Shown here piece by piece: positions 661-58,197 of a stretch of DNA of 64,000 bases. The notes under the pieces were generated by a model, which was given only the letters and a program-made list of their open reading frames with translations, had not been told where the DNA came from and searched no databases. This DNA is from Pelagomonas calceolata (taxonomy: Eukaryota). The translations under genes were made by a program, and so were the position numbers. Each line of letters opens with the position of its first letter. The first letter of the stretch is position 1. The stretch spans positions 4,898,001 to 4,962,000 of the forward strand of contig CAKKNE010000005.1 in NCBI GenBank assembly GCA_918797485.1, given 5' to 3'.

Positions 661-1875
661 ATGCCCGCCGAAGAGGCGGCGACGAGCGACAAAAAGCCGA
701 AGCAGAATGGCTGGCGGGCGCTCCTTCGCGCGCGGCGGCGCCGCGAGAAGCGGGAGAAGCGGCAGGAGATGATGATCAACCACAAGCCGAGCCTCTTCCG
801 CTGGCCCACGCGGGCTCTTCCAGCGGTGGCCGGCTGCCGCACGGAGCCCCACAAGCCGTGTTGCGTCAGCTGCGACCAGAACGTCGGCTCGCATTTGGTC
901 CTCGACCTTGGTGCTCGGCTGCTGGCGACGAGATCCGCATTCCAAGCGATCGAGGTCTTCGACACGGAGGCTTTCGGCCACGTGATGACCATCGACGGCG
1001 ATCTGCAGCTTACGGAGCTCGACGAGTGCCACTACCACGAGATGATGGTCCACGTGCCGCTCGCCTCGAGAAAACCCGGCGCCGGCGCGCCGCGCGTGTT
1101 GATCATCGGCGGCGGCGACGGCGGCTGCGCGCGCGAGGCGCTGCGCTGGCCCGGCGCGACCGTCACGCTCGTCGACATCGACGCCGCCGTCCTCGACGCC
1201 GCGCGGCGCTTCTTCCCGGCGTGCGCCGCGGGCCTCGACGACCCGCGCACGGAAGTTCACGTTTCAGACGGCGCCGCGTTCGCGGCGGCGGCGGCTGCGC
1301 GCGGCGACACCTACGACCTCGTCATCTGCGACTCGACGGATTGTAGCGCAGCAGAACGAGCGTCCGGGACGCTCTACACGGACGCCTTTTTCGTCTCAGT
1401 CGCGGCGCTCGTAGCGCCGGGCGGCTTCTTCTGTAGAAATTATACAAGTCTGCTCCTGTGCACATGGAAATCAAAATTTCACGGCGCGTTCGCTGAATCG
1501 TCGCGTCGACCTCCACGCCATCGACGCGACGCCTGCTCGACGGCGTGTGCACCCGACGCACTGTTTGATTTCCACACAGGTCTCCTCTGGAATACTGATG
1601 AAGCCGCAGCGACGCTGCCCCGCTACGCCGCGCATTTCGCGCACGCTAGCCCTTTTGTATGGAATCAACCGACATACTCGTCGGGCTCCTACTCGGCCCT
1701 CCTCTGCGGCGCCGCCGCGCCGTGCGCGACGCGTGACCTCGCCGCCATCGCCGCGACCCTCGGCGAGACGGACTACTGGACGCCCGCGGTTCACCGCGCA
1801 GCATTCGCTCTCCCCGCATTCGTGGCGCGCCGCATGAGTCCCTCAGCGCCCCCCGCGCCGCCCAACGAGTCCTAG
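661..1875 (+). CDS. Spermidine synthase / polyamine aminopropyltransferase-like (exons 661-1447, 1580-1875)
   Basis: Motifs SAFQAIEVFDT..FG, IDGDLQ..E.DE..YHEMMVH, RVLIIGGGDGG..RE, LVDID, DGAAF, YDLVICDSTD. Removing the introner 1448-1579 gives continuous NYTSLLWN. Confidence 0.9.
   Translation: MPAEEAATSDKKPKQNGWRALLRARRRREKREKRQEMMINHKPSLFRWPTRALPAVAGCRTEPHKPCCVSCDQNVGSHLVLDLGARLLATRSAFQAIEVFDTEAFGHVMTIDGDLQLTELDECHYHEMMVHVPLASRKPGAGAPRVLIIGGGDGGCAREALRWPGATVTLVDIDAAVLDAARRFFPACAAGLDDPRTEVHVSDGAAFAAAAAARGDTYDLVICDSTDCSAAERASGTLYTDAFFVSVAALVAPGGFFCRNYTSLLLCTWKSKFHGAFAESSRRPPRHRRDACSTACAPDALFDFHTGLLWNTDEAAATLPRYAAHFAHASPFVWNQPTYSSGSYSALLCGAAAPCATRDLAAIAATLGETDYWTPAVHRAAFALPAFVARRMSPSAPPAPPNES
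1448..1579 (+). mobile_element. Introner intron, 132 nt, GT-AG
   Basis: TSD gtctgctc (1448-1455) / gtctcctc (1580-1587); 5' TIR ctgtgcacatggaaatcaa; 3' TIR ttgatttccacacag; internal hairpin gtcgcgtcga...tcgacgcgac. Confidence 0.9.
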
Positions 1876-1900
1876 TAGCACTATAACAAAATTAAAAAAC

Positions 1901-3541
1901 TCAGAGCGTCGGCGTCGCGAGAGCGAGTTCCTCCTGGGCGTCGGTTTGAACGAGGGCGCGCGCCGGCGTGTTGAGGCGGAAGACGGCCCCCGCGTCGCCA
2001 CGGGCGCGGCAGACGGCGTCCGCGGCCGTGGCGCCCCAGAAGTGCGCCTCCTCGACGAGCGGGAGCGACATGTCCGTGTGCGCGAAGACGAGCGCGCCCC
2101 CGAGAGCACTCCGCGGCGCCGCGGTCGCGCCGAAGACCCGCTCCAAGAACCCGGGCGCCGGCTTGGCCATGGCGCGCGGGAGCACGCGGACGTCGACCGC
2201 GCGGACGGCGGAGGGCGCGCCCGGGTGGGACCGCGCGACCTCGGCGACGGCCGCCGCCGCGAGGTCCTCGCGCGAGCGCGCCGCGAGCGCGGCGCGCTGC
2301 GCGTCGGGGTCCCCGTCGGCGAACGCGGCGTAGAGCGTCAGCACCGCCGGCCGCGGCCGCCGCAGCGCATCCAGGCAGTTCCCGCGGAAGCGTCGCTGGT
2401 GCGTGGAGACGACGAAGCCGAGCGAGGCCCGCGAGAGGTCGCCATCCGCCGCAGGCGCGCCGTCGGCCGCGGCGGCGTCGTACGCCACGTTGTCCCAGGC
2501 GGTGCCCGCGGGCGGGGCGGCGACGCGGAGGTTGGACACGACCCAGGGCGCGTACGCGAGCGGCGGCCCCGCGGCCTCGGGAGAGTCGAGCAGCGCCGCC
2601 GCCGCGTACCGCGGGAGCGCGCAGACCGCGTGCGCCGCGGTCACCTCGCGGAGGACGGGCGCGCCGCCGCCGCCGGCCGCGTAAGTGACGGCGACGCCCC
2701 CGGCGCGCGCGACGCAGCGGAGCGCGGGCGCGCGCGTCCGCACGTCGACGCCCGCTTTCGCGAGGCGGGCCGCGAGCGCCTCCGCGACGTGGCCCAGCCC
2801 GTCGGGCCACGTGTAGAGCGTTTCGCGGCCGCGCGCGCAGAAGTAGTGCAGCATGACCCACGCGCTGCAGTCCTGGGCCGCCGTGCCGTAGTCGTCCCGG
2901 AGGCAGTAGTCGACGAACCAGCGCAGCGCGGCCGTGCGGAAGCCGTGCGCCGCGAGCCAGTCCGCGGCCGACTCCTTGTCGAGCTCGCAGATCGTCGGGT
3001 CGCGCGAGCACGCGGCCACGGGCAGCACGAACGCGAAGCGGCCGTCGCGGCCCCGGCGCGTCGCGAAGGCCTCGATCTTGCCCCGGAACCGCCGCTGCTC
3101 GGCGCGGTCTGCACCCGTCCCGAACGGAGCGACGTCGAAGTTTGCGGGCATCGCGCGCTGCCACCGCTCCTCGGCGCGCAGGTAGAGCCGCTCGACGGGC
3201 GCGCGGCAGACGTCGCGCCGTGTCACGCCGAGCTCCTTGAGGAGCTGCGCGAACTCGTGCAGCTTGGACCGCCGCGACGGCACCGGCACGTAGCCGGCGC
3301 CGAGGGGGCAATCGCCGCCGGAGCGCGCGTTGCCGCCGATGGCGTCCGCGGCCTCGAGCAGCACGATCCGCTTCACGCCCCGCTTCGCCAGCCGGTGCGC
3401 CGCGCAGAGGCCCGCCAGGCCGCCGCCGAGCACTACGACGTCGAACGCCTCCGAGGACGCGGGCTCCGCGCCGCTCGTGTCCGACCGCAGCGCCGCGACC
3501 TCCGCCGCCGGGTCGACGCCGACGAAGTTGCCCGGTGGCAT
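1901..3541 (-). CDS. FAD/NAD(P)-dependent oxidoreductase (amine oxidase-like, bacterial-type)
   Basis: Rossmann motif DVVVLGGGLAGL..A..L, LLEA...IGGNARS, YCLRDDYG, WDNVAY, C-terminal FAHTDMS..VEEA..WG..AA; no intron seen. Confidence 0.85.
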   Translation of the reverse strand: MPPGNFVGVDPAAEVAALRSDTSGAEPASSEAFDVVVLGGGLAGLCAAHRLAKRGVKRIVLLEAADAIGGNARSGGDCPLGAGYVPVPSRRSKLHEFAQLLKELGVTRRDVCRAPVERLYLRAEERWQRAMPANFDVAPFGTGADRAEQRRFRGKIEAFATRRGRDGRFAFVLPVAACSRDPTICELDKESAADWLAAHGFRTAALRWFVDYCLRDDYGTAAQDCSAWVMLHYFCARGRETLYTWPDGLGHVAEALAARLAKAGVDVRTRAPALRCVARAGGVAVTYAAGGGGAPVLREVTAAHAVCALPRYAAAALLDSPEAAGPPLAYAPWVVSNLRVAAPPAGTAWDNVAYDAAAADGAPAADGDLSRASLGFVVSTHQRRFRGNCLDALRRPRPAVLTLYAAFADGDPDAQRAALAARSREDLAAAAVAEVARSHPGAPSAVRAVDVRVLPRAMAKPAPGFLERVFGATAAPRSALGGALVFAHTDMSLPLVEEAHFWGATAADAVCRARGDAGAVFRLNTPARALVQTDAQEELALATPTL

Positions 3542-3666
3542 CTTCGTGACCGCTATTTATCGGCTGCCAGGACAGCACTCAAGCGGATGCAAACGCTCGA
3601 CAATTCATGAGTACCCAGGCAATCCTGCGAAGGCATCTGCGACCTTGTTGGGTTAACTTTTTTGGC

Positions 3667-3687
3667 CTAGCGATGTAAGATACTAGC
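3667..3687. promoter_or_regulatory. CTAG-flanked intergenic motif, copy 1
   Basis: ctagcgatgtaagatactagc, about 126 bp upstream of the ATG at 3541. Confidence 0.6.
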
Positions 3688-3790
3688 AGGGAAGTGCGTT
3701 CGGGTCGACAGCTTGCTAGTATGAAAGACGCGGGCCGCGCCCATCAGTCGTAGTAGAACTCCTTATACAGTAATATACACACCCGGCGCG

Positions 3791-4501
3791 TCAGGGCTTG
3801 CAGTAGCACCAGCCGCTGCCCTCGCCCTCGCATTCTGCGTCGAGGCAGCACCACGGGATCGTCGACGGCTCAGACGCCGTATGGTCGCAGGCATTTCCGG
3901 AAGCGTCCGCCGAGCACGCGTTCTGAGTGGCGGCGCATCCGGGGAAGGTCGCGTCGGTCCACGAGGCCATGCACGTTCGGTCCACGGTGAGGCATTCGCC
4001 GGAGGCGGGCTGCTTCGTCGGAGCGCCCGCGTTGCATCTACACCAACCCTCGTTCTCGCCCTCACAATTGTTCGTGGTGCAGCACCAGTGAAAACTGTCG
4101 TCGCAATTCGTACAGTACTCCTGGTGGCTGCTGCAGCCGTTTATCGTGTTGTCGGTCCACAAGGGCAGGCATTGCGTGGCGCTCGCCGTACAGTAACCGG
4201 GGGCATCGTGGCGGCTCTGGCCGCTGTCGTCGTCGCTTTTGCCGCCGCTCTCCTCGCGGGGGAGGAGTACCGCGAGTAGGACGATGAGGACGATGATGGG
4301 TACCGCAATGCCGAAAGCGATTAGATAGTGTACTTGGCGCAAGCGGCCACTACCGTCCCCCCCGCGCCGGTTCGCCATGTACTGGCGTCTTGCCGCCGCA
4401 TTGCCACGAACCGGCACGGCGACCTGGCCGGGCTGGCCCGGGTAGATCTTTTGCGACTCGACGACCTGGGCCTGCACCACCGGTGGCATCACCTCTGCCA
4501 T
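3791..4501 (-). CDS. Type II membrane protein with two Cys-rich extracellular modules; intronless paralog of 7442-8891
   Basis: TM segment LIAFGIAVPIIVLIVLLAVLL followed by two C..W.D...GC...Q..C...CD...WCC....C.....GWC.C modules. Confidence 0.8.
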   Translation of the reverse strand: MAEVMPPVVQAQVVESQKIYPGQPGQVAVPVRGNAAARRQYMANRRGGDGSGRLRQVHYLIAFGIAVPIIVLIVLLAVLLPREESGGKSDDDSGQSRHDAPGYCTASATQCLPLWTDNTINGCSSHQEYCTNCDDSFHWCCTTNNCEGENEGWCRCNAGAPTKQPASGECLTVDRTCMASWTDATFPGCAATQNACSADASGNACDHTASEPSTIPWCCLDAECEGEGSGWCYCKP

Positions 4502-4662
4502 TTTATGGGTCTCCAGTAGTAATTTCCCCCCTAGTACGAGGAAGCGATGTGCTTGAGAATCTGGCAGCTACAATGCTTATGCGCATGCAGTCACACAGAA
4601 CTTCACTTGACACGGACACTGGCACTCCAGGGCGCTGGACTGAGGTTGCCGGTTTTGCTGGA

Positions 4663-4686
4663 GCTAGCGGCGTGTAAGGCACTAGC
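4663..4686. promoter_or_regulatory. CTAG-flanked intergenic motif, copy 2
   Basis: gctagcggcgtgtaaggcactagc, about 162 bp upstream of the ATG at 4501. Confidence 0.65.
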
Positions 4687-4688
4687 AA

Positions 4689-4724
4689 TAGCCTTAGCCT
4701 TAGCCTTAGCCTTAGCCTTAGTCT
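4689..4724. repeat. (TAGCCT)n hexamer microsatellite, about 6 copies
   Basis: tagcct x5 plus tagtct; a related tagcctgagcctgagcct lies at 4813-4830. Confidence 0.9.
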
Positions 4725-5009
4725 TCCCTGCGACTCAGCCCTTGCGTCCTAGTCCAGCCGGACGGGTGGGCCCGGGGGAGCGGGAGGGGTACGGGGGACC
4801 CTGCGACGTAACTAGCCTGAGCCTGAGCCTTGCACGTTAGGACTGCTAAAGGCGCCGTCGAGCCGCTCCGCACCGCTCCTTAAGCAAAGGCAGCGCCAAA
4901 ATCCAATTCTTGCGAGGCATAAGCACCGCACGCGGGCGCAAGTGCTGGCACAAACGGAATGTCAAATGCACCGAGAATGACGTTATACGCCATCCACGTC
5001 CCTACACCT

Positions 5010-7051
5010 CTACGCGCCCCAGCCCTGGACGGGCGCGCCGGGGACCGGTGCCGGCTCGCCCACGCCAGCGGCGGTCACGAGGGCGACGGGCGCCTGGTAG
5101 TGCGGCGGTGGCGGATACGCGCCGGGCCGTGGTGATGGCGCCTCGGCCGAGGTGGCGATGGCTCCCCACGCGCCGGGCGCGTGGACGTAGATGTTGTAGC
5201 CTGCGCGAGCGAGCCGTGAGTTTCGCGGCGACGGCGTCTCCCGCCACGCCATCGACGCGTGGAATTTCCGACACAGACGCGATACCGGGCCCGATCCCCG
5301 GCGGGAAGGTCGCCGCTATGAGCGCGCCTGTCGGGGCGCGGACGACGAAGGATGTGCCCGGTAACGCGCCCTGCGGCGCCGTGAATGTGAAGTCCTCTAA
5401 GGCGCGGAGAACGGCGGCGCCGGAGGGGTTCTGGGTCGTGGCGTTGACCTGTAAATCAAATAGTGAGTCGGGTCTGGCACCGCCACGCGATCGAGCAGGC
5501 GTCGCGTCGATGGCGTAGTAGAGGTCGACGCGACGATTCAGCAATGAAAGGTCGGCTTCGATCTTCTCGAGGACCTGCTCGCGCTCGACGGGCGCGACGA
5601 AGGCGCCGCGAAATTTGATTTGTGCACAGTTCACGACGTGCGCCGTCGCCTGCCAGAGCGCCTGGGAGAACTGCGGCACGAACTCGCCGCGGGCGGCGCT
5701 CGCGATCGCGTGGGCCGCGCGCAGCTCCGCCTCGACGAGCGGCGGCGGCGGGCCGGTCCACGACGAGACGGGCCGACAGACGACCGGCGCGGCCTCGACG
5801 GTTACCTGTGTGGAAATCAACCAGTGCGTCGAGTGCATGTGGAGGACGACGCGACGATTCAGCACGAACGCGCCGTGAAATTTTGACCACACAGACGGTC
5901 ACGGTCGGGTACGCGGGCGCGGTCGCGACGTAGTCCGCGGACTCGCCCTCGACGTAGGACGCGCGGCCGCTGTACTTTTGGCGGAGTGCGGCCAAACCAG
6001 AATTGGTGCGGGTGACGTCGTCGTCGTCGTCGTCGGACGATGACGAGGAGGCATTCTCCTCGACGACGCCGTCCATATCCACGGGCCCCACGACCAGCGG
6101 CTTCACCTCGAACGTACGAGGCGCCGCCGCCGCCCCCGTGGGCGGGAACGACGCGACGCCGGCCGGCGCCGGGGGCACGATCTCGAAGACGACGGCCAGC
6201 AGCGCCCCGAGGCGCACGAAGGACACCGTCGCGTCCCGCGGGAGCTGGCCGGCGGCGCCGCGGCCCAGCGCGGCGACGGCCGCGTCCTCGATATCGTCGT
6301 TGCGGTCCTCGACCGCGGCGGCGTCGTCGACCTCGAAGCAACAGCACACCATTTTCGTCGTCTTCCTGCCGTAGAACCCGCGGCACGCCGCCGCGACGTC
6401 GCGGATGAGCTGCCGCGCCGGGGGCCCGAGCTTCTGGCCCAGGCCGCAGTCGTTCAGGGTGTCCGCCGCCGCCTCGGGCTCCTTCGCGATCAGCGCGATG
6501 TCGACGACGGCGAAGTTCGGCCCGTCGGGCGGCAGCTCCGCGCGCCAGGCGTCGTCGTCCGCGGGCTCCGTCGTCGCCGCCGGCGCGTCGTAGAAGTCGG
6601 GCGCCACGTACCGGTGCGCCCGCCGCCACAGATGAAACTGCAGCGCGGTGCCGTTCTGGTCGTCGCCCGAGCAGTCGATGGCCCAGCGACGCTGCTCGGA
6701 GACCTCGTCGACCTCGGTGTGGTCCACAAAGTCTACGAGCCCACGAAAGAGCGCCGCGTAGGCCATCGGGCCCGCCATCAAGGGCCGCTGCGGCACGTAG
6801 CCGACGTGCGTGCGGTGGCGATGAGAGCGCCGGCCCATGAGCCCCACCGTCAGCGTGCCGCCCGCGGCCATGGTCACGGCCGCCCGGACCTGGAAGCGGT
6901 GGTAGGACCGGTGGCCGCGGTACGTAACGTGGGAGTGCGAGGGACCCCGGTGGTGGAAGAAGAAGCCGCCACGGTTGCGGCCTCGAGAGTAGCTGCTCCG
7001 GGACCCCCCAGAGCGGTGATGGTGGTGAGCTCCTTTGCCGCCCTTCCCCAT
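5010..7051 (-). CDS. Hypothetical protein with Arg/His/Gly-rich N-terminus and a C-terminal (V/A)PxG-repeat module; exons about 7051-5903, 5805-5635, 5448-5286, 5200-5010
   Basis: Three ORF-track segments join in frame after removing three introner-type introns. Confidence 0.7.
5201..5285 (-). mobile_element. Degenerate introner intron, 85 nt
   Basis: GT donor, TIR-like ctgtgtcggaaattcc, family core cacgccatcgacgcg, ends gcgcag. Splicing restores ...GIGP-GYNIYV. TSD not recognisable. Confidence 0.6.
5449..5634 (-). mobile_element. Introner intron, about 186-189 nt, with an internal insertion
   Basis: 5' TIR ctgtgcacaaatcaa; 3' end tttgatttacag; partial TSD gtgaac/gtcaac; family core present. 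Donor could be 5634 or 5637. Confidence 0.75.
5806..5902 (-). mobile_element. Introner intron, 97 nt, GT-AG
   Basis: Plus-strand TSD acggttac (5798-5805) / acggtcac (5895-5902); TIRs ctgtgtggaaatcaa / ttgaccacacag. Splicing fixes the frame change. Confidence 0.9.
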
Positions 7052-7060
7052 TGTGCGAAG

Positions 7061-7441: not shown

Positions 7442-8891
7442 ATGGAAGGCCATTTTGCGGTGCAAGTACCGCCCTCGGCCGGGCCTGGCTCGCAGCTCAA
7501 CGTTCGCGCTCCGACGACGGGCGAGACGTTGACTGTAGTTGTGCCAGCAGGGGTTTACCCTGGTTCTAGCTTCATGGTGCCGCTTCCGCGGCAGCCCCGG
7601 CCCGTTCCCGCAGCGCCCGTTCAGGCTCAGGTGGTCCAGTCGCCGCAGCCGAAGGTTTACCAGGTCAATATTGAGTCGACGCGGCCCGCGCAGCCCGTCT
7701 ATGCCGAGCAAGTCCAGTCGCCGCGCCCCGTGCCTCCGTCGTCGCCCGCGGGCACGTTTCCGGTCATCGTGCCGGCGGGCCACTTCTCCGGCATGCGGCT
7801 CAGCGTGCGCGCCAGTGCATAAATCAATTGTCGCGGCGCGTTCCTCCATGCCCGACGGACGCGAGTCTCAACTACTGGTTGATTTGCGCACAGGTTCGCG
7901 CGCCGAACACCGGCCAGATGATGACGGTGGTCATTCCCGCGGGCGTAGGTCCCGGGGGTCAGTTCGCCGTGCCCCTGCCGATGCCTGTCGCGTCATATGG
8001 AGCTCGGAGCCGCCCCAAAGGGAACGCGGCGGCCCGGCGGCAGTACCAGCAAGCCCGACGCCGGGGCGATGGTCGGTTGCACAAGGTTCACTGGGGTGTC
8101 ATCGCGGGCATCGCAATAGTCATCATCCTCCTCATCCTCTTGCTCTCCCTCGGCGGGGACGGCGGCAACCAGGGCACCCCGGGGTACTGCACGGCGAGCA
8201 CCAGTGCGGAAATCAACCAGTGCGTCAGGCCGGTCTGGAGGTATTATTTACTATTCTGGCCGCCTCGACGTAGCACGAGAGTGCTCGGCGTCCTCGCACG
8301 AGGTGTCTTAGGCTTACTCACCCGAACGTTTGATTTCCGCACAGGAGAGCTCCACGCCCTGCCTCGCGTCCTGGACCGACCCCACAATCAACGGCTGCAG
8401 CACTCCCCAGGAGTACTGCACGAACTGCGACGACAGTTTTTACCTGTGCGGAAATCAAAAGTTCGGGTGAGTAAGCCTAAGCTGCCTCGTGCCAGGACGC
8501 CAAGCACTCTCGCGCTGCGTCGAGGCGGCCAGAATAGTAAATAATACATCCAGGCCGGCCTGACGCACTGGTTGATTTCCGCACAGGTTTTTACTGGTGC
8601 TGCACCACGAACAATTGTGAGGGCGAGGGCCAGGGTTGGTGTAAATGCAACGCGGGCGCTCCGCCGGAGCAGGCCGCCTCCGGCGAATGCCTCTCCGGGG
8701 GCCGAACGTGCATGGCCTCGTGGACCGACGCGACCTTGCCCGGATGCGCCGCCACTCAGAACGCGTGCTCGACGGACGCTTTCGGAAATGCCTGCGACCA
8801 TACGTCGTCATCGCCGTCGACGACGCCGTGGTGCTGCCTCGACGCAGAATGCGAGGTCGAGGGCAGCGGCTGGTGCTACTGCAAGCCATGA
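7442..8891 (+). CDS. Type II membrane protein: VPxG-repeat modules, TM, two Cys-rich modules (exons 7442-7804, 7894-8193, 8345-8435, 8587-8891)
   Basis: After removing three introners the C-terminus aligns residue by residue with 3791-4501 (…INGCSTPQEYCTNCDDSFYWCCTTNNCEGEGQGWCKC…GWCYCKP*). Confidence 0.85.
7805..7893 (+). mobile_element. Introner intron, 89 nt, GT-AG
   Basis: TSD gtgcgcgc / gttcgcgc; TIRs cagtgcataaatcaa / ttgatttgcgcacag. Confidence 0.9.
8194..8344 (+). mobile_element. Introner intron, 151 nt, GC-AG
   Basis: TSD gcgagcac / gagagctc; TIRs cagtgcggaaatcaa / ttgatttccgcacag; absent from the paralog. Confidence 0.9.
8436..8586 (+). mobile_element. Introner intron, 151 nt, GT-AG; inverted copy of the element at 8202-8344
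   Basis: Perfect TSD gtttttac / gtttttac; TIRs ctgtgcggaaatcaa / ttgatttccgcacag; absent from the paralog. Confidence 0.95.
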
Positions 8892-12321: not shown

Positions 12322-12361
12322 GTCGGTAAGCACACCGTGTGTCATAAAAGTTATCGCATAG

Positions 12362-14524
12362 TTATGGGGGCAGCAACCCAGCGAGCGCGTCCCGCGCCTC
12401 GGCGGTCCGGGCCCGCGCCACGTCCAAATTCCTCAACACCGCTCGGTGGCGCTGGGCAGCCGTCGATTCGCGCGGCGGTGCGCGGCGGCCGGGGGGCATG
12501 ACCACGGGCGAGGGCGGAGGCCCGAGCAAGGAAGATGACGCGCCCTCCGCCGCCCGCCGCGCCGCGAGGCGCGTCGCGCCCGTCCACCACCCAAAGGCCG
12601 CGCGCACCCCGCGCCACTCCGCGGACCGCGCGCCGGCGACGAGCATGGAAGAGAGGAAATGGGCGCGCGTCGCGTAGTTGCCGCGCCGCCGGAAGGCACG
12701 CAGGCCAAGCTTCAGGGCGCTCCGCCGCGCGACGCGAGCGCCCGATCGCAGCAAGACCAGCGTGAAGCGGTGGTGATGGGCCCGCGCTTGCGCCGCGCGG
12801 TCCGACGCGGTATCGCGCGCGGCCGCCGAGGACAACAAGGCTCCCCGAAAGATTCGGAACATCCCGCGCCGCAGGCGCCGTTCGTACGACCCAGCGCCCG
12901 CGCGGCCGACGGCCCGCGCCAAGTTCTCGAGCACGCCCTGGCGCGCGCGCGCCGCGGCCATCACCGCGAGCGCCCGCCGCTTCCCGTCGGCCCGCCTGTG
13001 TGTACGTCGACCGGTGAGTACGCGTCGATGTCGCTATATACGCGCGGGCCAGCACCGCTCCGCGGTGGCCCGCATGAGCTTCGCCGCGCACAGGCGCACG
13101 GCCCGTCGTCGCCGCACGTTCGCAGCCAGCGCAGTCACGCCCCGCCGAACCCTCGCGTCGGCCGCGCGCCGGGCCGGCCCCTCCGTCGCTCGCAGGAGCG
13201 CCGCCGCCCCGCGGGCTTTGTTCGCGTCGCGCGCGGCTTCCGGCTCCGTCGCCTGGCACGCGGCCTCGGCCGTGTCGCGCCGGGAGCGCCAGTGGTACGG
13301 CGACGAAGCCTCTTGTTGCGTCTTCGACGGCGACTGCGGCGGTGTCTTGAGCGCCGTGACCTCGTGGCCCTTGAGCGGAAGGCCTTTGAGCGCCGCGATC
13401 TCGGCGTTGGCGCGCGCGAGCCGGCCCTTGAGCGCCTTGACCTCCTCCTCGGCCGCGTCGGCGCGCTTCCCCTCGGCGTCGCGCTCGTGCCGGATCAGCT
13501 GGCTCGCCCAGTCCAAGTCGCTCTCCGCGTCGAGCCGCTTCTCGAGCGTCGCGGACCGCGCCTCGGCGCGCCGCAGGCGCTTCTGCGCGAGGTCCATGTC
13601 GTTGCGCGCCGCGGTGGCCACGTCGGCCGCGGCCGAGAGCCGCGCCGTCGTGTCTGCGAGCGCGTCCTCGAGCGCCTGGACGCGGTCCCGCATGAGCGCC
13701 GCCTCCGCGCCGCCGCCGTCGCTCGTGGCGGCGTCGTCGCCGCCGTCGAAGGCGAGCGACCGCGCCGGCGAGGCGGCCTCGCGCGCCCTCGCCAGGTCGG
13801 CGCTGAGCCGCGTGTTTACCGCCAGCAAGGCCCGGACCTGGCGCAGCATGACCTCGCGCTCCACCAGCAGCCGGTCGCGCGCGCGCGGGTCGCCCTTGGC
13901 CGCCCACATCGGCGCCGCGTCGCCGCGCCGCACCCAGTCGTCGACGGCCCCCAGCGCGTCGCAGGCCGCCGCGAGCGCGTCGCTGCTGCCGTCGCCAAAG
14001 TGCTCCAGCGACTCGAGCGACGCGCGCAGGCCGTTGTCGCGCGCGTGGCCGTTGCTCGAGGACTCGGGCCGTTGCTCTTCGACACTACCGGTGATTCGCA
14101 CGGCCGCCACGCCGCCGGACCGCGCCGCGGCGACCTCGCAGCGCGCCGCCGCCGAAAACGCCGCCGACGCCTCGGCGGACGACGCCGCGGCCCCGAGCTC
14201 CGGCGCGGCCCCGAGCTCGCGGCCGAGCAGGCGGCGCACGGGCGTCGCGCTCGCCTCGGGCGGCGCCAGCCGCGCGAGACCTCGGGGCGGCGTCGTCGGC
14301 GAGTAGCTGGCCCAGGTCGGCGGCGTCGGCGGCGGCGCCTCCTTCGCGTATGGCGGCGGCGACGCCGCGGGCGGCAGCATGTTTACGCGCGTACCCACGG
14401 CGGGCGGCAGCGGCGGCGCCGCGGCGGCCACATTTGTTTGGCGGAGCTCGAGCTTTTGGGGCGTGAGGTCGGCAGTGCTCAGCTCGCACTGGCTCTTGGT
14501 GATGGACCTTGGCGGTGTGCTCAT
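12362..14524 (-). CDS. Hypothetical coiled-coil protein (exons 14524-13056, 12995-12362)
   Basis: The 496-aa and 200-aa ORFs join in frame (…RATAER-RADGKRRALAVM…) via a 60-nt GT-AG intron. Confidence 0.65.
12996..13055 (-). mobile_element. Highly decayed introner-derived intron, 60 nt
   Basis: The 3' end actcaccggtcgacgtacacacag resembles the end of the 39016 element (actcaccggttgatttatgcacag); contains catcgacgcg core. Confidence 0.55.
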
Positions 14525-29748: not shown

Positions 29749-30965
29749 TTACTCAGGTTCTTCGTCATAGATCGCTGGCCGCTGCGCCGGCGGCTCCTGC
29801 TCAGCCTCCACCTTTCTCTTCAGGAAATTCATCGTCGCCTCCTCCTTGTTCGACGTGATCTTGCCGCCGGGGTGGGCGAACGTCCGCTTCGGCGGCGGCG
29901 GTGGCGGCCGCGCCGCGTCGGCGGCGAACCGGCCCGCCCGCTTTGCGCGCCGCGCGAGCTCCTCCTCGGACAGCTCCAGGCCCGCGATGGCGGGGGGTTT
30001 CTCGGCGCGCTCGCGCTTCCGCCGCGCCTTCACGCGCAGCCCGTCGGCCGTCAGGTCCAGCTGGCTTGACTTGCGGACCGCCGCCGCGAGCACGCGCCGG
30101 TCGTCGTCCGCCGTCTTCGCCGCGTCGACCGTCGTCGGGGGCGCGCATATAGAAATAATTTTCGGCGATAACCCGACCGGCATCGGCACGAATACGCCGT
30201 GCAGTTTTGATTTCCACACAGAGCAGCGCCGCGATGCGCGGGAACGTGAAGAAGGCCTCCAGCGCGACCGCGCCGTCCTCGTCCGCCAGGCTCTTGAGAA
30301 ACGCGTCCTGGCCCCAATTCCTCGGCGAGAAGTAGTACTCTGCTGCTGCCGCACGCTGACCCCGCCGTCGGACGGAGGCGGCTTCGTCCGAGTCGGCTCG
30401 TTCTGCGCCGACAGCTTCGCGGCGCAGTCGACGCACGTCGGCCGGGGCTTCTTCCATTGCTTCTCGACGAACATGCTCTGCGACCGTGCCTGGCCGCAGT
30501 GCTTGCACGTCTTCTGCGTCCCTGGCTCATCCGCCGGCGCCGCGGCGGGCGTCGGCGCGGCCGCGGGACCACCCAATGCTGTCGGCAGGCCCATCGCCGC
30601 CATCAGGTCGCGCTCGCTCGGCGCGCCCGCGGCCTCGACTGGCTCGGGCCCGGCCGCGGCGGCCCGCCGGGCGCGAAGGGCCCGTGCGGCTTGGACCTGT
30701 GCAGAAACCGGCGGCGCGGGCTCCTCGTTCGAGGCCGGCTCGGGCGGCGGCGGCGGCGCGGCGGCCGCCGGCTCGGCTGCGGGCTCAGGCGCGGGCGACG
30801 GTGCCCCGAGGCCGAACTCCTCCTCGTCCAGCGCCGCCTGGAGGCGGTCGACGAGCACGGCCTTGAGGCCGTCGCGGCCAGGCCCCGCCTTCTCAGTTCG
30901 GCGCGCAGCTCGACGACCTTCAGTTTCTTTGGCTCCACCATTGCTTGTGTTGGGGCCGCGTCCAT
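29749..30965 (-). CDS. SAP + Cys4 zinc-binding + La-motif + THO1/MOS11-like nucleic-acid-binding protein (frameshifts, one introner)
   Basis: KLKVVELRAELRRRGL…GLKAVLVDRL (SAP); CKHC…CVDC; EYYFS..N...DAFL.....DG.V.L...TFPRI…S.L.L..DG..V (La); SEEELARRAKRAGRF. Confidence 0.75.
30146..30229 (-). mobile_element. Introner with intact 5' TIR and a damaged 3' end
   Basis: Minus strand: gcgctgct then ctgtgtggaaatcaaaa…cacggcgtattcgtg…; interrupts the La motif; no AG at the expected end. Confidence 0.7.
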
Positions 30966-37792: not shown

Positions 37793-40734
37793 GTGCGGGC
37801 GAGCGGGCTGCCTCGCGCCCTTGCCGCTAGATGTAGGCGGTCCAATTTGCCCCCTGTCGGCCCAGATGACATAGATGAACTCACCTCGCTAAGAGATGAG
37901 TTCAGGAACCTGAACGATGCCTCGGCATTGCCGGAGATGGTGCTGGCGTATGATCTTTTTTTCGGCGACGGGGACATGGCGATTGACAGTGTTATAGCAT
38001 CCGTCGCGATGGTGGCGCTCGTCAACTACGTCCCAAAGGCGCCGACCGACGGCTGTGCGCTAGTCTTGACAACCTCTTGTCCGGAGGCGCAGGATCTGAA
38101 GGATTTAATAAATTCAATGACTGCCAAGTTTCGCTCTCGGCGGTCGACGCGCGATCATGGCGTCGCCGCCGCCAGCGACGCGGACGGCGCCGACGACGAG
38201 GCCTACCACTCGGCGGTCGCTGTGCTCGTCGAACATGTTGTATCCGCTGGCAGCACGTGGGTGGACCTGACGGACCGTGGTACCATTGACGCGCTAGTCG
38301 ATGTGATCGTGCGCGAGAGCACGAGGCCCGCCATGCTTGGTGCGGTTCCGGGAACGTTTTCTCATTTGTTACGCGTGTCGACGGATACCCCGCGCACGGA
38401 CGCGGGGCTTCTGAGGAATCTTATACGTGTGGCCGTTGCCCTCTGCCGGCTCGCCGCCGACAGTGATGAGGCGAGCACAAATCTGATCACCGATTCTCTT
38501 TTGGCGCTTCTGACAGCCGCGCCGCCTTCGCGCGACGTGGTCTACGTCATGGCGCGGGCCCTCGCCCGCGGTGGCGCGTTCTTGAAGGGGGGTACCAGAG
38601 CCGGTGTCCTCGTCGCTTCGCTAATCAAGCACACGACGCACTCTCCACCAGGAAGGCTGGGCCTTGTGCCACTGCTCATTTGCGACGAAACCGTAGAGGT
38701 CCTGTTGCCGCTCTTGAGCTGTGCCGATTGGATCCAAATTCCGACGGACGTTGGTATTTTCGAAGTCTTTACTGCTTACCCGTCCCCCGGCTTCTATGAC
38801 AAACATGACGGCCGCCTGCAGGTGAGGGACGTGGCCGCCCTGCTGCTGTGCGTTAGGTCGCTGCGGTTGCCTGCGACTTTGGCAAAGTTCGCGATGACAA
38901 TTGCTGGGACTTTGGCGCGGGACTCGATAGCGCGGACGGCTACGACTACGATGACCACCGATGGGAACACGTCGGAAAACTCACGCTTGAACACTTTCGG
39001 GCGCTGCTCGACATTGTCAAGGACAGTGCATAAATCTCCGCCACTGCTGAATTATGACATCCACGCCATCGACGCGACGCCAGCTCGACCCGACTCACCG
39101 GTTGATTTATGCACAGGCCAAGGACGCGGGCCGGCCGTCCGCGCGGATCGTCTACGAGTTTCTGCGCTACCTATCGCAATCGATGATGCGAAAGGACTCG
39201 CCCGAATTTAGCAAGGCCTTGTTCGTGCCGGTGGCGATGGCGCTCAAGGAACACGGCCACCTCGCGAAGTGGGGTAAAAGGGCCACAAGACGGCCCGAAG
39301 CTGCTCAAGACGCTCATGAAGCTGGGCGGCGACTGCGTCGTGGTCGCGCTCGACGCCTTCGCGGAGGCGGCGATAGGAGTCCAGAAGCGCATCGCGAAGC
39401 GGCGCGCCGCGCGCGGAGGCGGCACTGGCGGAGGCGGCGCTGGTGATGGTGCGGCTGAGGACACGGCCGCGCGCCAGGCGGCGGCGGACCAGGCGGCGGC
39501 AGATCTCCTCGCGTCGCTTGAGGCCGAGGAGCACAGGCCGGGGACCACGAAGAAGTCCAGAAAAAAAGGCAAGAAAGCGTCGGTGCCCGCGCCCGCGCCC
39601 GCGCCCGCGCCGGCCTCCGCCGCGGAGGTGTCGTCTTCGTCTTCGTCTGAGGACGACGACGACGACGATTTGCTGCTCCTGGCGAAACAACAAGCTTCGC
39701 GGTCGGCGCCGGCGCCGCGCGCCCGCGCCCGAACGAAGGCGCCCCCTGCTGCGGCGCCGCGCGCCCGCGAAGTTAATCCCGCCATGGCCTTCGCGAGCGC
39801 GCTCCGCGGCTGGATCGTTTCCCGGGGCGGCCGCATCGTCGGTACGGATCTCGCGCAGTTCTACAAAAGCCCGGCGGCGCGTGGACTTTCAGTGCCGAAG
39901 GGCGGCGCCCTTAAGCTACTGCGGACGGTGGCCGCTCCTGCCGGCCTGCGTATCTCTCAGGACGGTCCGCGCATTGTTATCTCCAGCGTCGGGGCCGTAG
40001 CGATGCCTCCGCCGCCACCGCCGCAGCCGAAGCCTCCCGCCGCCCCCACCGCCCCCCGCCGGGCCCTTTCTGACCTCGCCGTCGATGATGATGATGAGGA
40101 CGACGCGACGCCGGCGCGGAGGACACGACACGAAAACGCGGATGTCCCGAGGCACGCCGTTGAGGATTTACTGAAGCTGGAATCAAACGCCGGGTCAATA
40201 ACGGAAGAAGCTTTGAGAAAACTGGGCCGCCTCGCCGGACGCACGGCCGGTAGCCGCGCCGTGCCGGCCGACGAGGAGAAGGCGCCCGACGCCGGCCCCG
40301 CGCCGTCGCTCCTGCCGCTACTTACCGCGCCGGCGGCGGACGCCGGCGCGTCGTATGCGCTCGACGCCCCGCTCGCCGCCCTCCTGGCGCGCCTCGACCT
40401 GAATCACATAGCCGGAGCGCTGGCAGCGGAGGAGATTGATATCGAGGCCCTTCCGCTTTTGTCGATCAGTGACCTCGTGGACATTGCGATCAAACCAGAA
40501 GATGCTGAGAAGCTTCTGGTGGCGGCCGTGGCGCCGCCGCCCGCAGCGCCGCCGCCGCCGCCGATCGCGACGCCGTCGACGCAAGAGTGCCCGCTGTGCA
40601 TGGACGGCGACCGCGAGATCGCGCTGGTCCCGTGCGGACACGTCCTCTGCGCCGGGTGCGCGGGCCGGCACGCGACGGAGAGCTGCCCGATGTGCCGGCA
40701 GGATGTGGCGTCGACGATGAGGGTGTATTTCTAA
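37793..40734 (+). CDS. Helical-repeat protein ending in SAM-like and RING (C3HC4) domains; putative E3 ligase (introner at 39016, frameshifts)
   Basis: LAALLARLDLNHIAGALAAEEIDIEALPLLSISDLVDIAI (SAM-like); CPLCMD…LVPCGHVLCAGC…CPMCR (RING). Confidence 0.7.
39016..39116 (+). mobile_element. Introner intron, 101 nt, GT-AG
   Basis: TSD gtcaagga / gccaagga; TIRs cagtgcataaatc / gatttatgcacag; core ccacgccatcgacgcgac. Confidence 0.9.
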
Positions 40735-40967: not shown

Positions 40968-42315
40968 ATGCCGCAGCCTCGACGCCATCGATGCGGCACG
41001 CTACTCCTTCTGCTGGCCGGCAGCAGCACAGCTGCAGCATCCGAAACTCTCCGCGGCACGCTGCTCGTAAGCCATCAGGCCTTCGTCGAGCGCCTCTACA
41101 TTTCCAGGAGGTACGAGCGCTGGTTCGGCGGCGTCGCCTACCTCGTGCTGCCGGGCACGGCGGGCCGGCGGCGCTCGCACGAAGCGACGGGCGCGACGGC
41201 GACCGTGCCCTCGCAGGACGCCTGCGACCGGTATGGGGTCGCCTGCTTCTTGGCCCGCCGCGGCGCCGGCCGGGACCCCTACGTCGCGGCCTACGCGCAG
41301 CTCTTCGGGCAGCTCGCGACGTTTTCGAGGCGCGACGAGCCGCCGCCGTGGCTGCGGCCCCACTGGCGCGGGACGGGGGGCGTCACCGGCGCGGTCGCGT
41401 GCGCACCTAGATTTCTGGCTGGACCCGCCGTCGTTCGCGCACCGCGTCGACGCCTGTGTGGAATCAAATTTACGGCGCGTTCGCGGCCACGTCATCGCCG
41501 AGAAACGACTTTGTGAAGTCCACCCGACACACTGGTTGATTTCCACACAGGTCGACGCGGGCGCGTTGGATCTCAAGCGGCCGTGGACGCTCGCGGCGGG
41601 TTTGAATCGCCCGCCCGACGACGCCGTCCGCGAGTTCCGGGTCTTCGGGCGGTACTGCCTGGGCGGCGAGGCGCTCGACGTCGATAGAGAATGGACGTGG
41701 GGCCACGACGCGAAGGACCAGGCGCGCCGCGCGTGGGCCGCGAGCGCGCCGACACGTGCGAAGGAGCCCGAGGCCTGCGCCGCCTGGGCCGACCTCTTCT
41801 ACCTGCCGTCTCCCATCTTCGCGGACTTTGCGCAACTCTGCGGGACGCAGTTTAAATTCCACCACGAGGTGAGCGTGCCGACGGCGCTGCGCTTCCTCGA
41901 AGTGGAAGGCCGGGCGCCCGCGCCGCAGTTCTTGGATTGCTGGGGCTGCTCGCAGGCCTGGGCCAAGGACCCCGCCGTCATCGACCAGCACGCGTGCGGC
42001 CACCGCCTCGACCTCGGCCAGCGCCACGTGCGCGACGCCTTCCGCCACCGGCTCGACCGGCGGCCCTTCGCGCGCGACGCCGTGCTCGAGAGCCAGATTT
42101 ATGAATTGGACGCGGAGCAGGGCGGCGCCTGGGACGGCAAATCGCTATACTGGGAGACGGAGCGCAATCTAGATAGGTGGACGAACGGCTGCTGCCGGCT
42201 GCCCTCCGCGAACCAGACGGCCTGCGGCTGCGTCGGGCGCGACCCGCCGCGGACGGACGCGGCCGCGGCCGTGCCCTGCCACGGGGCCTACGTCCCGTCG
42301 ACGGTCGTCGGGTGA
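40968..42315 (+). CDS. Secreted hypothetical protein, weakly glycosyltransferase/DUF288-like (frameshift near 41390, introner at 41446)
   Basis: Signal-like LLLLLAGSSTA; WADLFYLP…F…EVSVPT motif. Family assignment is tentative. Confidence 0.55.
41446..41550 (+). mobile_element. Introner intron, 105 nt, GT-AG
   Basis: Perfect TSD gtcgacgc / gtcgacgc; TIRs ctgtgtggaatcaa / ttgatttccacacag. Confidence 0.95.
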
Positions 42316-50056: not shown

Positions 50057-51658
50057 ATGGCCACGCCGCCGAGCCAGGCCAAGACCAAGAGCAGCCAGGC
50101 CAAGACAAAAAAGCGCCGCCCCGCCGCCGACGACCCGCCCACGCCAGGTTCCAATGATCCGCTCCTCGCGGAGCTGCGCGAGACGACGACGCAGCGCCTC
50201 GCCGCCTTGCTCGCGTCCAATACAAACTTGCTGAGCGACCTCGGCCGGCTCAATACGAGTGGAGTGGACACGGGCACGGTCTTTGGCCGGGCGCTGAAGC
50301 GGGCCCGGGGGCTGGAGACGTTGGTGCCGCCGCCGCCGCCGCCGCCGGAGCACCGGCCGCGTCCAGTCAAGTGCGCGGCCTCGCTCCACACGTCCGTCAT
50401 CGTCGACGGCGCGGCCGTCGCCTTTGGGTTTGAGCCCTGCGGCGGCGACTGGCGGAGCCCGGGCCACGTGCCGTCCCAACTGCCCCGGATCGGCACGGCC
50501 CGGGACGTCGCCGTGGCGTGCGGCTGGGGGTTCACGGTCGTCGTCGACGCTTTTGGTGTGGCGCGCGCCGGCGGGCGGCTGCCCGGGTTGGCGCCGGGGT
50601 CTTCATTGAGACCGTTGCTCCCGAAGGTGCGCGTCCTCGCGGTCTCCGCGGGCGCCGCTCACGTCCTATTCTGTGTGGAAATCAAATTTACGGCGCTTTC
50701 GTCTTGAATCGCCGCGTCGACCTCCACGCCATCGACGCGACACCTGCTCGATGGCGTGGCGATGTCGGTACCTCACCGCTCGACGGAGCCAGCGAGCCCA
50801 CGTCATCGCCAAGTGCACCCGACACACTGATTGATTTCCACACAGGTCCTATTGGCGGACGACCAGGGCCGCTGCTGGTCCGGCGGCGACGCGGGGGACG
50901 GGCGGCTCGGCCGGGGCGGGGCGTCTGAGCTGGCTATCGTCGAGGGGGTCGATGACATCAAAGGCGTCGCGGCCGGAGCGTGCCACTCGCTCGCCTTCAC
51001 ATCGAAAGGAACGCTGTACGCCTGGGGCCTCGCGAGCGACGGCCGCCTCGGATTCACGACGGAGGACGCGAGCGCGCCGCCGACGCGCGTCGCCCTCGAG
51101 GGCGTCGTCGACGCGAGCGCGGGCAAGTACCACTCGCTCGTCGTCGCGTCGGAGGGGGTCGTCTTTGCGTTTGGCGACAACAGTTACGGTCAGCTCGGGC
51201 TCGGCCACGCGGACGACGCCTGGGAACCAGCCTGCGTCGCCTTGCCGTCGAGTGCCGTGTGCGTCGCCGCCGGCGCGTCGCACTCTTTGGTCTTGCTCGA
51301 GGATGGCGACGTCGTCGGCTTCGGCTCCGACGCGCAAGGCCAGCTCGGCGGCGCGCGCGTCGATGACGACGAGAGCGACAGCGACTCGTCGGACACGGAC
51401 AGCACGTCGTCGTCCTCGTCCTCGGCGGCGGACGACGAGGTCTGGACGCCCGCGCGCGTACCTGGGCTTTGCGGCAAGGGCGTCGTCGCGGTCGCGGCGG
51501 GCGGCGCCGCGAACAGCGACGCGGGCCACACCGTCGCCGTGACGGCGGCGGGCGCGGTGCTCTGTTTGGGTGCTGGGGGCTTAGGCCAGCTCGGCGCTGG
51601 CGTGGATTCTTCTTCGACTCCTCTGCCGGTGCCCGTGCGGAAGACTGCTTGGAGTTAG
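50057..51658 (+). CDS. RCC1-repeat protein (exons 50057-50662, 50846-51658)
   Basis: Repeated VAAG..HSL…G.LYAWG....GRLG and FGDNSYGQLGLG; the two ORFs join as AGAAH-VLLADD. Confidence 0.92.
50663..50845 (+). mobile_element. Introner intron, 183 nt, GT-AG (among the longest and most intact copies)
   Basis: Perfect TSD gtcctatt / gtcctatt; perfect 15-bp TIR ctgtgtggaaatcaa / ttgatttccacacag; carries an in-frame stop, so it must be spliced. Confidence 0.97.
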
Positions 51659-51682
51659 TATTCACAATGTTCTTCTTACACA

Positions 51683-57249: not shown

Positions 57250-57699
57250 ATGAAGAAGGTCAAGTCGCAGGACCTCTTGGTCCTGGACGCCAATGACATC
57301 TACCGCCTCTGCCAGGGCGGCGACATCGTCAACCCGACCGTGGCGAACAACCCCGCGTACGCCATCCCGCACAAGCTCCGGGTCCTCGTCGTGCTGGCGG
57401 CGTTCCAGCTCGTCGCCGGCCTCACGAACGGGTCGCTCGGCCCGCGCGTCGCCAAGCTGTGCGTCCGCGCCGCGCGCATCGCGCAGGCCGCGTCGGCGCA
57501 GGGCCAGGCGAACATCAAGCTCCGCGTCGCCGCGCGCATCGAGGACGCGAACACGTCGGACAGCGCCGCCTTCGACGTCGCGAAGGACGGCCAGAAGGCG
57601 ATCGACGCCCTCAACGGCGCGGCGGAGGCGGAGCGGCGCCGCATCCTCAAGAGCAAGCGCAAGCGCGGCGGCGCCTTCGCGTTCGCCGGCTCCTTCTGA
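57250..57699 (+). CDS. Hypothetical protein
   Basis: 149-aa ORF with strongly GC3-biased codons; no recognised motif. Confidence 0.55.
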   Translation: MKKVKSQDLLVLDANDIYRLCQGGDIVNPTVANNPAYAIPHKLRVLVVLAAFQLVAGLTNGSLGPRVAKLCVRAARIAQAASAQGQANIKLRVAARIEDANTSDSAAFDVAKDGQKAIDALNGAAEAERRRILKSKRKRGGAFAFAGSF

Positions 57700-57804
57700 G
57701 TGGTCGCTTCGCTCTCATCTGAACAGACATACCGCGCGCACCGCGGCGCCGCGCGCGACGACTAAGATACAACCCCTCTTATGAATCTCGTCTTCGTCGG
57801 ACTA

Positions 57805-58096
57805 TCACGACTTACCAGCCGCGATGCCGGTCGAGGCGATGGGCGGCGCGGCGACGCAGGAGGAGCGGCCCGCGGGGCGGCGCGCCCCTGTGCCACCGCG
57901 GCGCCGCGAAGCGCACGTACGCCGGCGCACGAAGCCGGTCCACGGCGAGGGGCGAAACGGTCGACGCGCGGCGGCGGTCCCGGCGCGTCGGCCGCGAGGC
58001 GCGTACCTCCAGAGCGGCGAGTCGCGCGGGCTCGGAGTCGCTCTGATGGCGACGGCGAGGGCGGCGGCGAGGACGAAGACGAGGCGCGCGGCCATC
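57805..58096 (-). CDS. Short hypothetical secreted protein
   Basis: Signal-like MAARLVFVLAAALAVAIRA; the downstream frame is uncertain. Confidence 0.4.
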
Positions 58097-58119
58097 GCCG
58101 ATCGTGGATCGAGGAGTAG

Positions 58120-58197
58120 CTGCGTAAGCGTCAACTTCCACGCCACATAGCAGACAAGGCGTCGCGTCGATGGCGTGGAGTCCAAGGCTATCGCCAC
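58120..58197 (-). mobile_element. Decayed introner-derived intron, 78 nt
   Basis: cag|gtggcg…ctccacgccatcgacgcgacgcc…cttacgcag; family core intact, TIRs eroded. Confidence 0.55.

What the first reader, a model, noticed from the sequence alone, without database searches (positions are those of the whole stretch)
1448..58197. Almost all introns here are copies of one intron-generating DNA transposon family (introners)
Seen: 13 insertions (at 1448, 5201, 5449, 5806, 7805, 8194, 8436, 12996, 30146, 39016, 41446, 50663, 58120). The intact ones share the TIR C(T/A)GTG(T/C)(G/A)(G/T)AAATCAA…TTGATTT..(A/G)CACAG and an 8-bp TSD. In each intact copy the upstream TSD starts with GT or GC (donor) and the element ends in CAG (acceptor). 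Splicing therefore removes the element plus exactly one TSD and restores the protein, e.g. RCC1 AGAAH-VLLADD. Known: this co-opted-splice-site mechanism has been described for introner elements of the pelagophyte Aureococcus anophagefferens. Inference: these are members or relatives of that system, in several subfamilies of 60-189 nt; whether these subfamilies are described I cannot tell.
Basis: partly seen in the sequence, partly recalled or inferred. Interest (0 to 1): 0.85.

Follow-up and report, generated by a model that had tools for sequence, protein, structure and literature searches.

The report
Intron-making transposons of Pelagomonas, still segregating
The short repeated inserts in these genes of the marine alga Pelagomonas calceolata are cut out of the messenger RNA as introns (all six tested), are likely copies of a small DNA transposon of an already known kind (introners), and likely differ in presence between wild strains.

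Summary
Real, and a known system. The window is Pelagomonas calceolata (99.8% protein identity), for which 956 putative introners are already published. Eight of the 13 sites are intact: a 15-bp terminal inverted repeat (TIR), an 8-bp target-site duplication (TSD) starting GT/GC, and a terminal CAG. RNA reads splice 6 of 6 tested sites at the predicted bases, removing the element plus one TSD-length flank; the DNA run shows none of these joints. Two more sites are supported by homologous proteins, three look intact but are untested, and two (12996, 58120) are unconfirmed relics. In 73 copies paired by TIR alone the duplication is exactly 8 bp and 70 offer a GT/GC donor. Corrections: most short copies are in-place deletions of one 203-nt master, not subfamilies, and only 3 of 8 TSDs are exact. 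What I did not find in print: wild alleles of one gene show about six presence/absence sites and both orientations at one site, and a second 203-nt family with the same TIR matches an Aureococcus protein read-through. No transposase was found.

The parts
1448..1579 (+). Introner intron (TSD copy 1448-1455 + element 1456-1579) in a spermidine synthase gene; in frame, no stop
   Evidence: 113 of 120 homologues align better to the spliced form; filled and empty wild alleles; no RNA joint visible (swamped by repeat reads)
5201..5285 (-). Eroded family-A intron, 85 nt, TSD not recognisable
   Evidence: RNA joint in X21, X22, X10; interior match to family A
5449..5637 (-). Family-A intron, 189 nt, with an extra internal stretch, shortened acceptor TIR, TSD 3/8
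   Evidence: RNA joint
5806..5902 (-). Family-A intron, 97 nt (element 5806-5894 + TSD copy)
   Evidence: RNA joint
7805..7893 (+). Introner intron, 89 nt; donor-side TIR starts CAGTG
   Evidence: RNA joint GT..AG; DNA contig continuous across it (record 11)
8194..8344 (+). 143-nt subfamily intron with GC donor, inverted relative to the 8444 copy
   Evidence: RNA joint, 151 nt skipped, GC..AG fits within the 2-base ambiguity; interior 91.7% identical to the 8444 copy
8436..8586 (+). 143-nt subfamily intron with perfect TIR and exact 8-bp TSD
   Evidence: RNA joint with 8 letters fitting both sides, i.e. one TSD removed
12996..13099 (-). Possible relic; predicted intron, boundaries uncertain
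   Evidence: only the terminal 5 bases match at each end, no TSD; X15 contig unbroken across it; unconfirmed
30146..30229 (-). Introner intron in a SAP/La-domain gene; acceptor garbled in this sequence
   Evidence: P. calceolata protein P0370 equals removal of element + one TSD; 18 of 61 hits read into the element, in several lengths
39016..39116 (+). Family-A intron, predicted, 101 nt; donor-side TIR starts CAGTG
   Evidence: (removal opens a frame that has 3 stops unspliced); not RNA-tested
41446..41550 (+). Family-A intron, predicted, 105 nt, exact TSD
   Evidence: not RNA-tested
50663..50845 (+). Family-A intron, predicted, 183 nt, exact TSD and perfect TIR, in an RCC1-repeat gene
   Evidence: (2 stops if unspliced); not RNA-tested
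58120..58197 (-). Possible relic: GT..AG stretch carrying the family-A inner hairpin, no TIR or TSD
   Evidence: unconfirmed

Best explanation
These inserts are spliceosomal introns (six shown by RNA) that likely arose from a non-autonomous, MITE-type DNA transposon, an introner of Pelagomonas calceolata, likely moved by a cut-and-paste transposase that has not been identified. Shown: both ends carry the same 15-bp TIR, so either orientation puts CAG at the 3' end; each copy is flanked by an 8-bp duplication; the spliceosome uses GT/GC at the start of the upstream duplicate and the terminal AG, which removes the element plus 8 bases and restores the reading frame. Inferred: the full-length element is 203 nt (a 211-nt intron); insertions in exons persist where the duplicated target offers GY on the sense strand; afterwards the copy decays in place through internal deletions, drift of the intronic TSD and loss of the unused AG at the donor-side end. 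Also inferred, at about 0.55: the mobiliser is hAT-like, from the 8-bp TSD, short TIR and a weak palindromic GY..RC target bias.
For: RNA joints at 6 of 6 tested sites, absent from DNA run X3. In 73 copies paired by TIR alone (69 metagenomic, 4 window), the flanks match only at 8 bp: 29 exact, mean identity 0.80 against 0.37 shuffled; other lengths from 2 to 13 are at background. 70 of 73 have GT/GC at the TSD start or AC/GC at its end, against about 32% expected from a GY frequency of 0.174. Among 54 copies with one possible orientation, the terminal AG is lost 9 times at the donor-side end and once at the acceptor end. A 44-member family contains 8 window copies; its full-length members are 199-205 nt (consensus 203), and window copies align to it with different internal deletions. 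The same insertion site shows several deletion lengths in wild alleles of two genes. Shorter copies have worse TSDs (Spearman 0.36, p=0.002). Empty sites in read-through alleles: 13 P. calceolata-like proteins lack the 1448 insert yet run into what looks like another unspliced element downstream, 3 of them diagnostic. The published intron-length peak of about 210 bp fits 203+8 (PMC9481584).
Against: No transposase with these ends was found: none among 121 metagenomic loci, which sample 2 of 64 parts of the collection; none in viral contigs; the stored part of the P. calceolata annotation lists one DDE transposase, Tc1-like. Seven of 13 sites have no RNA test, and 12996 was unbroken in one RNA-library contig. 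The length-versus-age trend is weak when binned (7/28 against 14/28 exact TSDs, p=0.097). The palindromic target bias is modest (10 of 43 against 10.6% expected, p=0.012). Wild-allele evidence is from protein translations of metagenome contigs, not from DNA I could read. The metagenome search required one perfect TIR, which biases the sample.
Confidence: 0.93

Rival explanations
1. The elements spread through RNA: a spliced intron is reverse-spliced into other transcripts and reverse-transcribed, as proposed for fungal introner-like elements.
For: The element folds strongly as RNA (z = -6.35). About 9 of the 10 clearest window copies face the same way relative to transcription (by eye). No transposase was found.
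Against: The first 8 intron bases differ from site to site and copy the local exon, so the mobile unit is not the intron. Both orientations serve as introns (23 against 18, 2 unclear). Perfect TIRs and an 8-bp TSD are DNA-transposon marks. Strong folding follows from the TIR and inner hairpins.
Confidence: 0.03
2. They are ordinary MITEs that landed inside older introns, or old conserved introns that resemble each other by chance or gene conversion.
For: 5201, 5449, 12996 and 58120 lack a clear TSD or TIR; for these alone an older intron that picked up element fragments is not excluded.
Against: RNA boundaries coincide with the TSD start and the last TIR base. Conspecific alleles lack the insert altogether. 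Host genes are unrelated.
Confidence: 0.03
3. The apparent population polymorphism (empty sites, opposite orientations at one site, family B in a Pelagomonas-like allele) is an artefact of metagenome mis-assembly at a high-copy repeat, or mixes sister species and transcripts; the introns are fixed relics of an old burst.
For: Only translations were seen. 15 uninterrupted proteins may come from transcripts. The 8 records that stop at codon 274 show only one residue of the putative element. Family B in a Pelagomonas-like allele rests on one record (P0322). Family-A copies are about 91% alike, so not brand new.
Against: The same variants recur in separate records (3 and 2 for the two reversed forms; 3 for the codon-286 site; 14 for the codon-90 site). 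P0344 has unspliced elements on both sides of an empty codon-263 site. The window's own DNA lacks the other sites. Empty-site proteins lie on contigs of 4.4 to 11.7 kb.
Confidence: 0.25

Closest known systems
Putative introner elements of Pelagomonas calceolata (Guerin et al. 2022, PMC9481584; main-text passages and Supplementary Note 3 read; Fig. S3 logo and Supplementary Data 3 not seen)
   Same: Same species; 956 putative IEs with GT and GC donors, AG acceptor, conserved TIR; intron length peak near 210 bp.
   Different: The text I read gives no TSD, no family sequences, no deletion series and no population polymorphism.
Introner elements of Aureococcus anophagefferens (Huff, Zilberman and Roy 2016, PMC5684705, not held, known here only through citing papers and recall; Roy et al. 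bioRxiv 10.1101/2020.10.14.339549 passages; Gozashti et al. 2022 PMC9860276 passages and Table 6 rows)
   Same: One splice site carried by the element and the other recruited from the TSD; works in either orientation (bioRxiv passage, which likens its 8-nt classes to Aureococcus); a family of about 200 nt with TSD and TIR (1744 copies, Table 6). Family B found here shares the TIR and the 203-nt length and matches the read-through tail of A. anophagefferens protein KAK7235517.1.
   Different: The window's main family A has an interior only about 41% identical, ungapped, to family B. Most window copies are eroded to 76-181 nt. The published consensus was not available for a direct comparison.
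Micromonas introners with wild presence/absence polymorphism (Simmons et al. 2015, PMC4540971, abstract only; review PMC11282704, passages)
   Same: MITE-like introners; presence/absence polymorphism and possible insertion hot-spots in wild populations.
   Different: 3-nt TSD, element carries the donor and takes the acceptor from the TSD (review); families there are lineage-specific, whereas here two genera share the TIR.
hAT-superfamily MITEs (review PMC3878927, passages)
   Same: 8-bp target duplication; NTNNNNAN target preference, compatible with GT......AC.
   Different: No hAT transposase with these ends was found; P elements also make 8-bp duplications.

Membership tests
Introner (TE-derived spliceosomal intron family) | Many similar introns at unrelated positions in unrelated genes | tested here: met
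   44-member family with 8 window copies; host genes unrelated
Introner (TE-derived spliceosomal intron family) | Removed from mRNA at canonical GY..AG boundaries | tested here: met
   6 of 6 sites in 4950-9000; the other 7 not RNA-tested
Introner (TE-derived spliceosomal intron family) | Recent gain: orthologous alleles lack the intron | tested here: met
   at site 1448 only, by unspliced translations of wild alleles; DNA not read
Aureococcus-type pelagophyte introner | 8-bp TSD whose 5' GY is the donor; element supplies the AG | tested here: met
Aureococcus-type pelagophyte introner | Makes introns in both orientations | tested here: met
   8202 against 8444, both RNA-confirmed; 23 against 18 in metagenomic copies
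Aureococcus-type pelagophyte introner | Sequence relationship to Aureococcus elements | tested here: met
   indirect: the tail of KAK7235517.1 matches family B (score 83 against 28 for the next frame); A and B share the TIR, the length and about 41% of the interior; the published consensus was not available
Aureococcus-type pelagophyte introner | Insertion into nucleosome linkers | not testable with these tools
   needs MNase data; feature cited in PMC9860276
MITE (non-autonomous DNA transposon) | Short, TIR, TSD, many copies, no coding capacity | tested here: met
   203 nt is too short for a transposase and 4 of the 6 family-A frames have stops
hAT superfamily | 8-bp TSD | tested here: met
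hAT superfamily | NTNNNNAN target preference | tested here: inconclusive
   GY..RC in 10 of 43, p=0.012; GT 23 against GC 10; confounded by selection for splicing
hAT superfamily | Autonomous element with the same TIR encoding a hAT transposase | tested here: inconclusive
   none found in a small sample; no whole genome held

The most novel reading that the evidence does not exclude
Wild P. calceolata is caught in a still-segregating intron invasion. One 1.1-kb gene carries about six presence/absence introner sites. One site holds the element in both orientations (repeat hits on the same 8 bases, or inversion in place between the TIRs). Each insertion erodes stepwise in place. Two families with strongly diverged interiors keep the same TIR and exactly 203 nt and are shared with Aureococcus, pointing to one length-constrained transposase system spanning both genera. 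Ocean metagenomes would then give allele frequencies for birth, shrinkage and loss of individual introns in a very abundant eukaryote.
Probability: 0.5. Interest if true: 0.6.

Novelty: already known. Interest (0 to 1): 0.32.

Why it matters
As a system it is known: pelagophyte introners are a textbook case of transposons making introns, and they are reported in this species. The added value is practical and population-genetic. In-frame copies are missed by annotation: the NCBI-sourced protein P0327 equals the unspliced read-through of the 1448 element, 44 extra residues. If the wild-allele pattern holds at DNA level, P. calceolata offers a direct test of whether new introns fix by drift or are selected against, and of how fast they lose their transposon marks.

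Tried and rejected
No whole genome is held, so there is no genome-wide count. The first read lay (1-14000 at 90% likeness) was swamped by reads from other copies and showed no usable intron joints. Virus vector: 53 viral-contig matches to the 15-mer, none with a partner TIR and TSD; 0 matches to a 21-mer. Prokaryote genomes: 1 match, at a contig end of a MAG, probably a contaminant. Autonomous element: the 7 unpaired anchors in GC-rich loci were eroded copies, chance matches or that contig end; their ORFs were not scanned. 'Donor maturation' (the intronic TSD copy drifting towards the splice consensus): G at +3 was 15 against 10 and G at +5 was 21 against 17 in 59 pairs; no statistical test, not convincing, dropped. 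CAGTG as an ancestral hAT-type end: not supported, since A, C and G all occur at that position and reads over 8203 show T. A nucleosome-linker hot-spot in the spermidine synthase gene: three sites lie within 70 nt but three others lie elsewhere; not claimed. Micro-introns at the window's frame breaks: more simply 1-base sequence errors, as at 30880 and 30350 where the reference protein is intact. Exact look-up of two window ORFs found nothing. The PDB search of the upstream RCC1 exon gave only weak RCC1-family hits, E 0.06 or worse. The representative-protein search never ran, which leaves 12996 and the RCC1 junction without homologue tests. Earlier scan findings: none by sequence or by the specific words; the 8 shown for 'introner' concern other genomes. 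Not found in print in searches: TSD analysis, family structure or polymorphism for Pelagomonas introners. Huff 2016, the PNAS 2022 SI appendix (Table 8, mobilising elements) and Guerin Fig. S3 and Data 3 were not seen and may cover some of this.
Full report
Host. The mitochondrial peptidase ORF at 44090-45523 is 99.8% identical over 478 residues to Pelagomonas calceolata CAH0370476.1, and 59-72% identical over two local segments to the Aureococcus orthologue. The window is P. calceolata, a pelagophyte. No whole genome was held.

Observation. Eight of the 13 listed sites are complete elements with a 15-bp TIR (CTGTGTGGAAATCAA or a close variant) at both ends and an 8-bp flanking duplication: exact at 8444, 41454 and 50671, 7/8 at 1456, 5806, 7813 and 39024, 6/8 at 8202. 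On the gene strand all eight have GT (7) or GC (1) at the start of the upstream duplicate and end in CAG. The window holds 14 TIR-like ends; 30 Markov resamples gave at most 2 ends and no pair. The other five sites are degenerate: 5449 and 30146 keep much of the TIR, 5201 and 58120 keep the inner hairpin, and 12996 keeps only its terminal five bases.

Splicing. Raw polyA reads from two runs of one sample (X21, X22), contigs of another study (X10, RNA by guess) and a DNA run (X3) were laid on 4950-9000 at 98% likeness. Six skips match the predictions: 5201-5285, 5449-5637 and 5806-5902 on the minus strand (2-7 reads per run, plus one X10 contig that skips all three), and 7805-7893, 8194-8344 and 8436-8586 on the plus strand (14-56 reads per run). 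X3 has none of the six joints and has contigs running through the 5201 and 7805 elements. At 8436 eight letters fit either side of the joint, which is removal of exactly one TSD. 15 of 22 joint rows were shown; the other rows shown lie within or between element copies. For 1448, 113 of 120 homologues align better to the spliced protein; the 6 that prefer the unspliced form are close alleles reading into the element, and 1 is a tie. For 30146, the P. calceolata protein P0370 equals removal of the element plus one TSD; the window's acceptor is garbled, next to two 1-base breaks in the same gene, so this is probably sequence error. At 39016 and 50663 removal deletes in-frame stops; these two and 41446 were not RNA-tested. 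Against: a contig of metatranscriptome run X15 crosses 12996 without a gap, though it may be DNA or pre-mRNA.

The family beyond the window. An exact 15-mer scan of metagenomes returned 121 loci from 2 of 64 parts of the collection (about 6000 stretches estimated; some are chance bacterial matches). Pairing ends by TIR alone gave 73 elements, 4 of them from the window. Their flanks match at 8 bp only (29 exact; identity 0.80 against 0.37 shuffled). 70 of 73 offer a GY donor on one strand, against about 32% by chance. The terminal AG is lost 9 times on the donor side and once on the acceptor side among 54 single-orientation copies. That asymmetry is what selection for splicing predicts. Both orientations are used (23 and 18, 2 unclear). 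There is a modest excess of targets that are GY..RC on both strands (10 of 43, p=0.012), compatible with the NTNNNNAN preference of hAT transposases (PMC3878927, passages), but not proof of it.

Family structure. Interiors of 56 metagenomic and 13 window elements cluster into family A (44 members, with window copies 1456, 5201, 5449, 5806, 39024, 41454, 50671, 58120), family B (12, none in the window), the pair 8202/8444, and 11 singletons, among them 7813, 12996 and 30146. The consensus of both A and B is 203 nt; they share the TIR and about 40 terminal bases at one end, and about 41% of the interior without gaps. Window A copies are different internal deletions of the master, and TSD quality falls with length (Spearman 0.36). 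The two 143-nt copies, 92% alike, inverted and 91 exon bases apart, look like a true subfamily and a local hop (inference).

Wild alleles. Unspliced translations from public assemblies act as a read-out of DNA. Of 109 spermidine synthase proteins examined, 68 cover the 1448 site from upstream, 1 starts within it and 40 do not cover it. 30 are filled (one is the window's own): 19 with the element in the window's orientation, in several lengths, 5 apparently reversed, 6 too short to tell. 38 are empty: 10 Aureococcus-like and 28 P. calceolata-like. Of those 28, 15 are uninterrupted (may be transcripts) and 13 stop at what looks like another element downstream: 10 at codon about 273 (thin evidence) and 3 at codon about 286 (clear match to reversed family A). 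Further sites absent from the window occur at codons about 90 (14 records), 170 (1) and 232 (1), and at codon about 96 of the peptidase gene (2). In the La gene 18 of 61 hits read into the element, in at least four lengths; 34 are uninterrupted, 1 differs by three residues and 8 do not cover the site. The annotated A. anophagefferens protein KAK7235517.1 runs into an element matching family B, and one allele 96% identical to the window's gene does too. All of this is inferred from peptides; I could not read those contigs.

Mechanism. Shown: TIR, 8-bp duplication, GY..AG splicing that removes element plus 8 bases. Inferred: cut-and-paste insertion of a 203-nt MITE by a trans-acting enzyme, survival of insertions that supply a donor, then decay in place. 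The enzyme was not found; hAT-like is my best guess at about 0.55.

What is known. Guerin et al. 2022 (PMC9481584) report 956 putative IEs in this species with GT/GC donors, AG acceptors and TIRs, and an intron peak near 210 bp. The TSD-donor mechanism in either orientation is attributed to Aureococcus in the bioRxiv passage read, and Gozashti et al. 2022 list a 200-nt TSD+TIR family there and small families in Pelagomonas MAGs with TSD and TIR undetermined. Wild presence/absence polymorphism and hot-spots are published for Micromonas (PMC4540971, abstract). Huff et al. 2016 was not held. I found no paper giving TSDs, family structure or polymorphism for Pelagomonas, but unseen supplements may.

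Verdict. The system is already known in this species and clade, so interest is 0.32. The population-level side findings are the part worth following.

Noticed in passing
window 1448-1579: The NCBI-sourced protein P0327 (404 aa) is identical to the unspliced read-through, so the public gene model keeps this in-frame element as 44 codons.
   Followed up: yes
window about 18500, 30350, 30880, 39275, 41405: Apparent 1-base frame breaks in otherwise coding sequence; for the two in the La gene the reference protein is intact, so probably assembly errors.
   Followed up: partly
window 38822-38856: A 35-nt GT..AG stretch whose removal would join two open frames; possible short intron unrelated to the family.
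   Followed up: no
window about 19400-25300: Long array of related repeats with a main period near 650 bp and smaller sub-units, mostly scored non-coding, next to a 777-aa minus-strand ORF with no Pfam match.
   Followed up: no
window 5286-5448 and 5638-5805: The exons between three neighbouring element introns are 163 and 168 nt, close to one nucleosome repeat (value recalled); other spacings (300, 91) do not fit.
   Followed up: no
window 661-1872: Outside pelagophytes the listed relatives of this spermidine synthase are about 35% identical, and most of those named by organism are bacterial.
   Followed up: no
window 4690-4720: Short tandem run of a 6-base unit in intergenic DNA; this stretch draws many reads and contigs from elsewhere in the genome.
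   Followed up: no
L064, L067, L084, L087, L094, L099, L124, L148, L164, L168 (family B hosts): Family B sits mostly in loci of 66-75% GC, higher than most family-A hosts (57-71%); host species not determined.
   Followed up: partly
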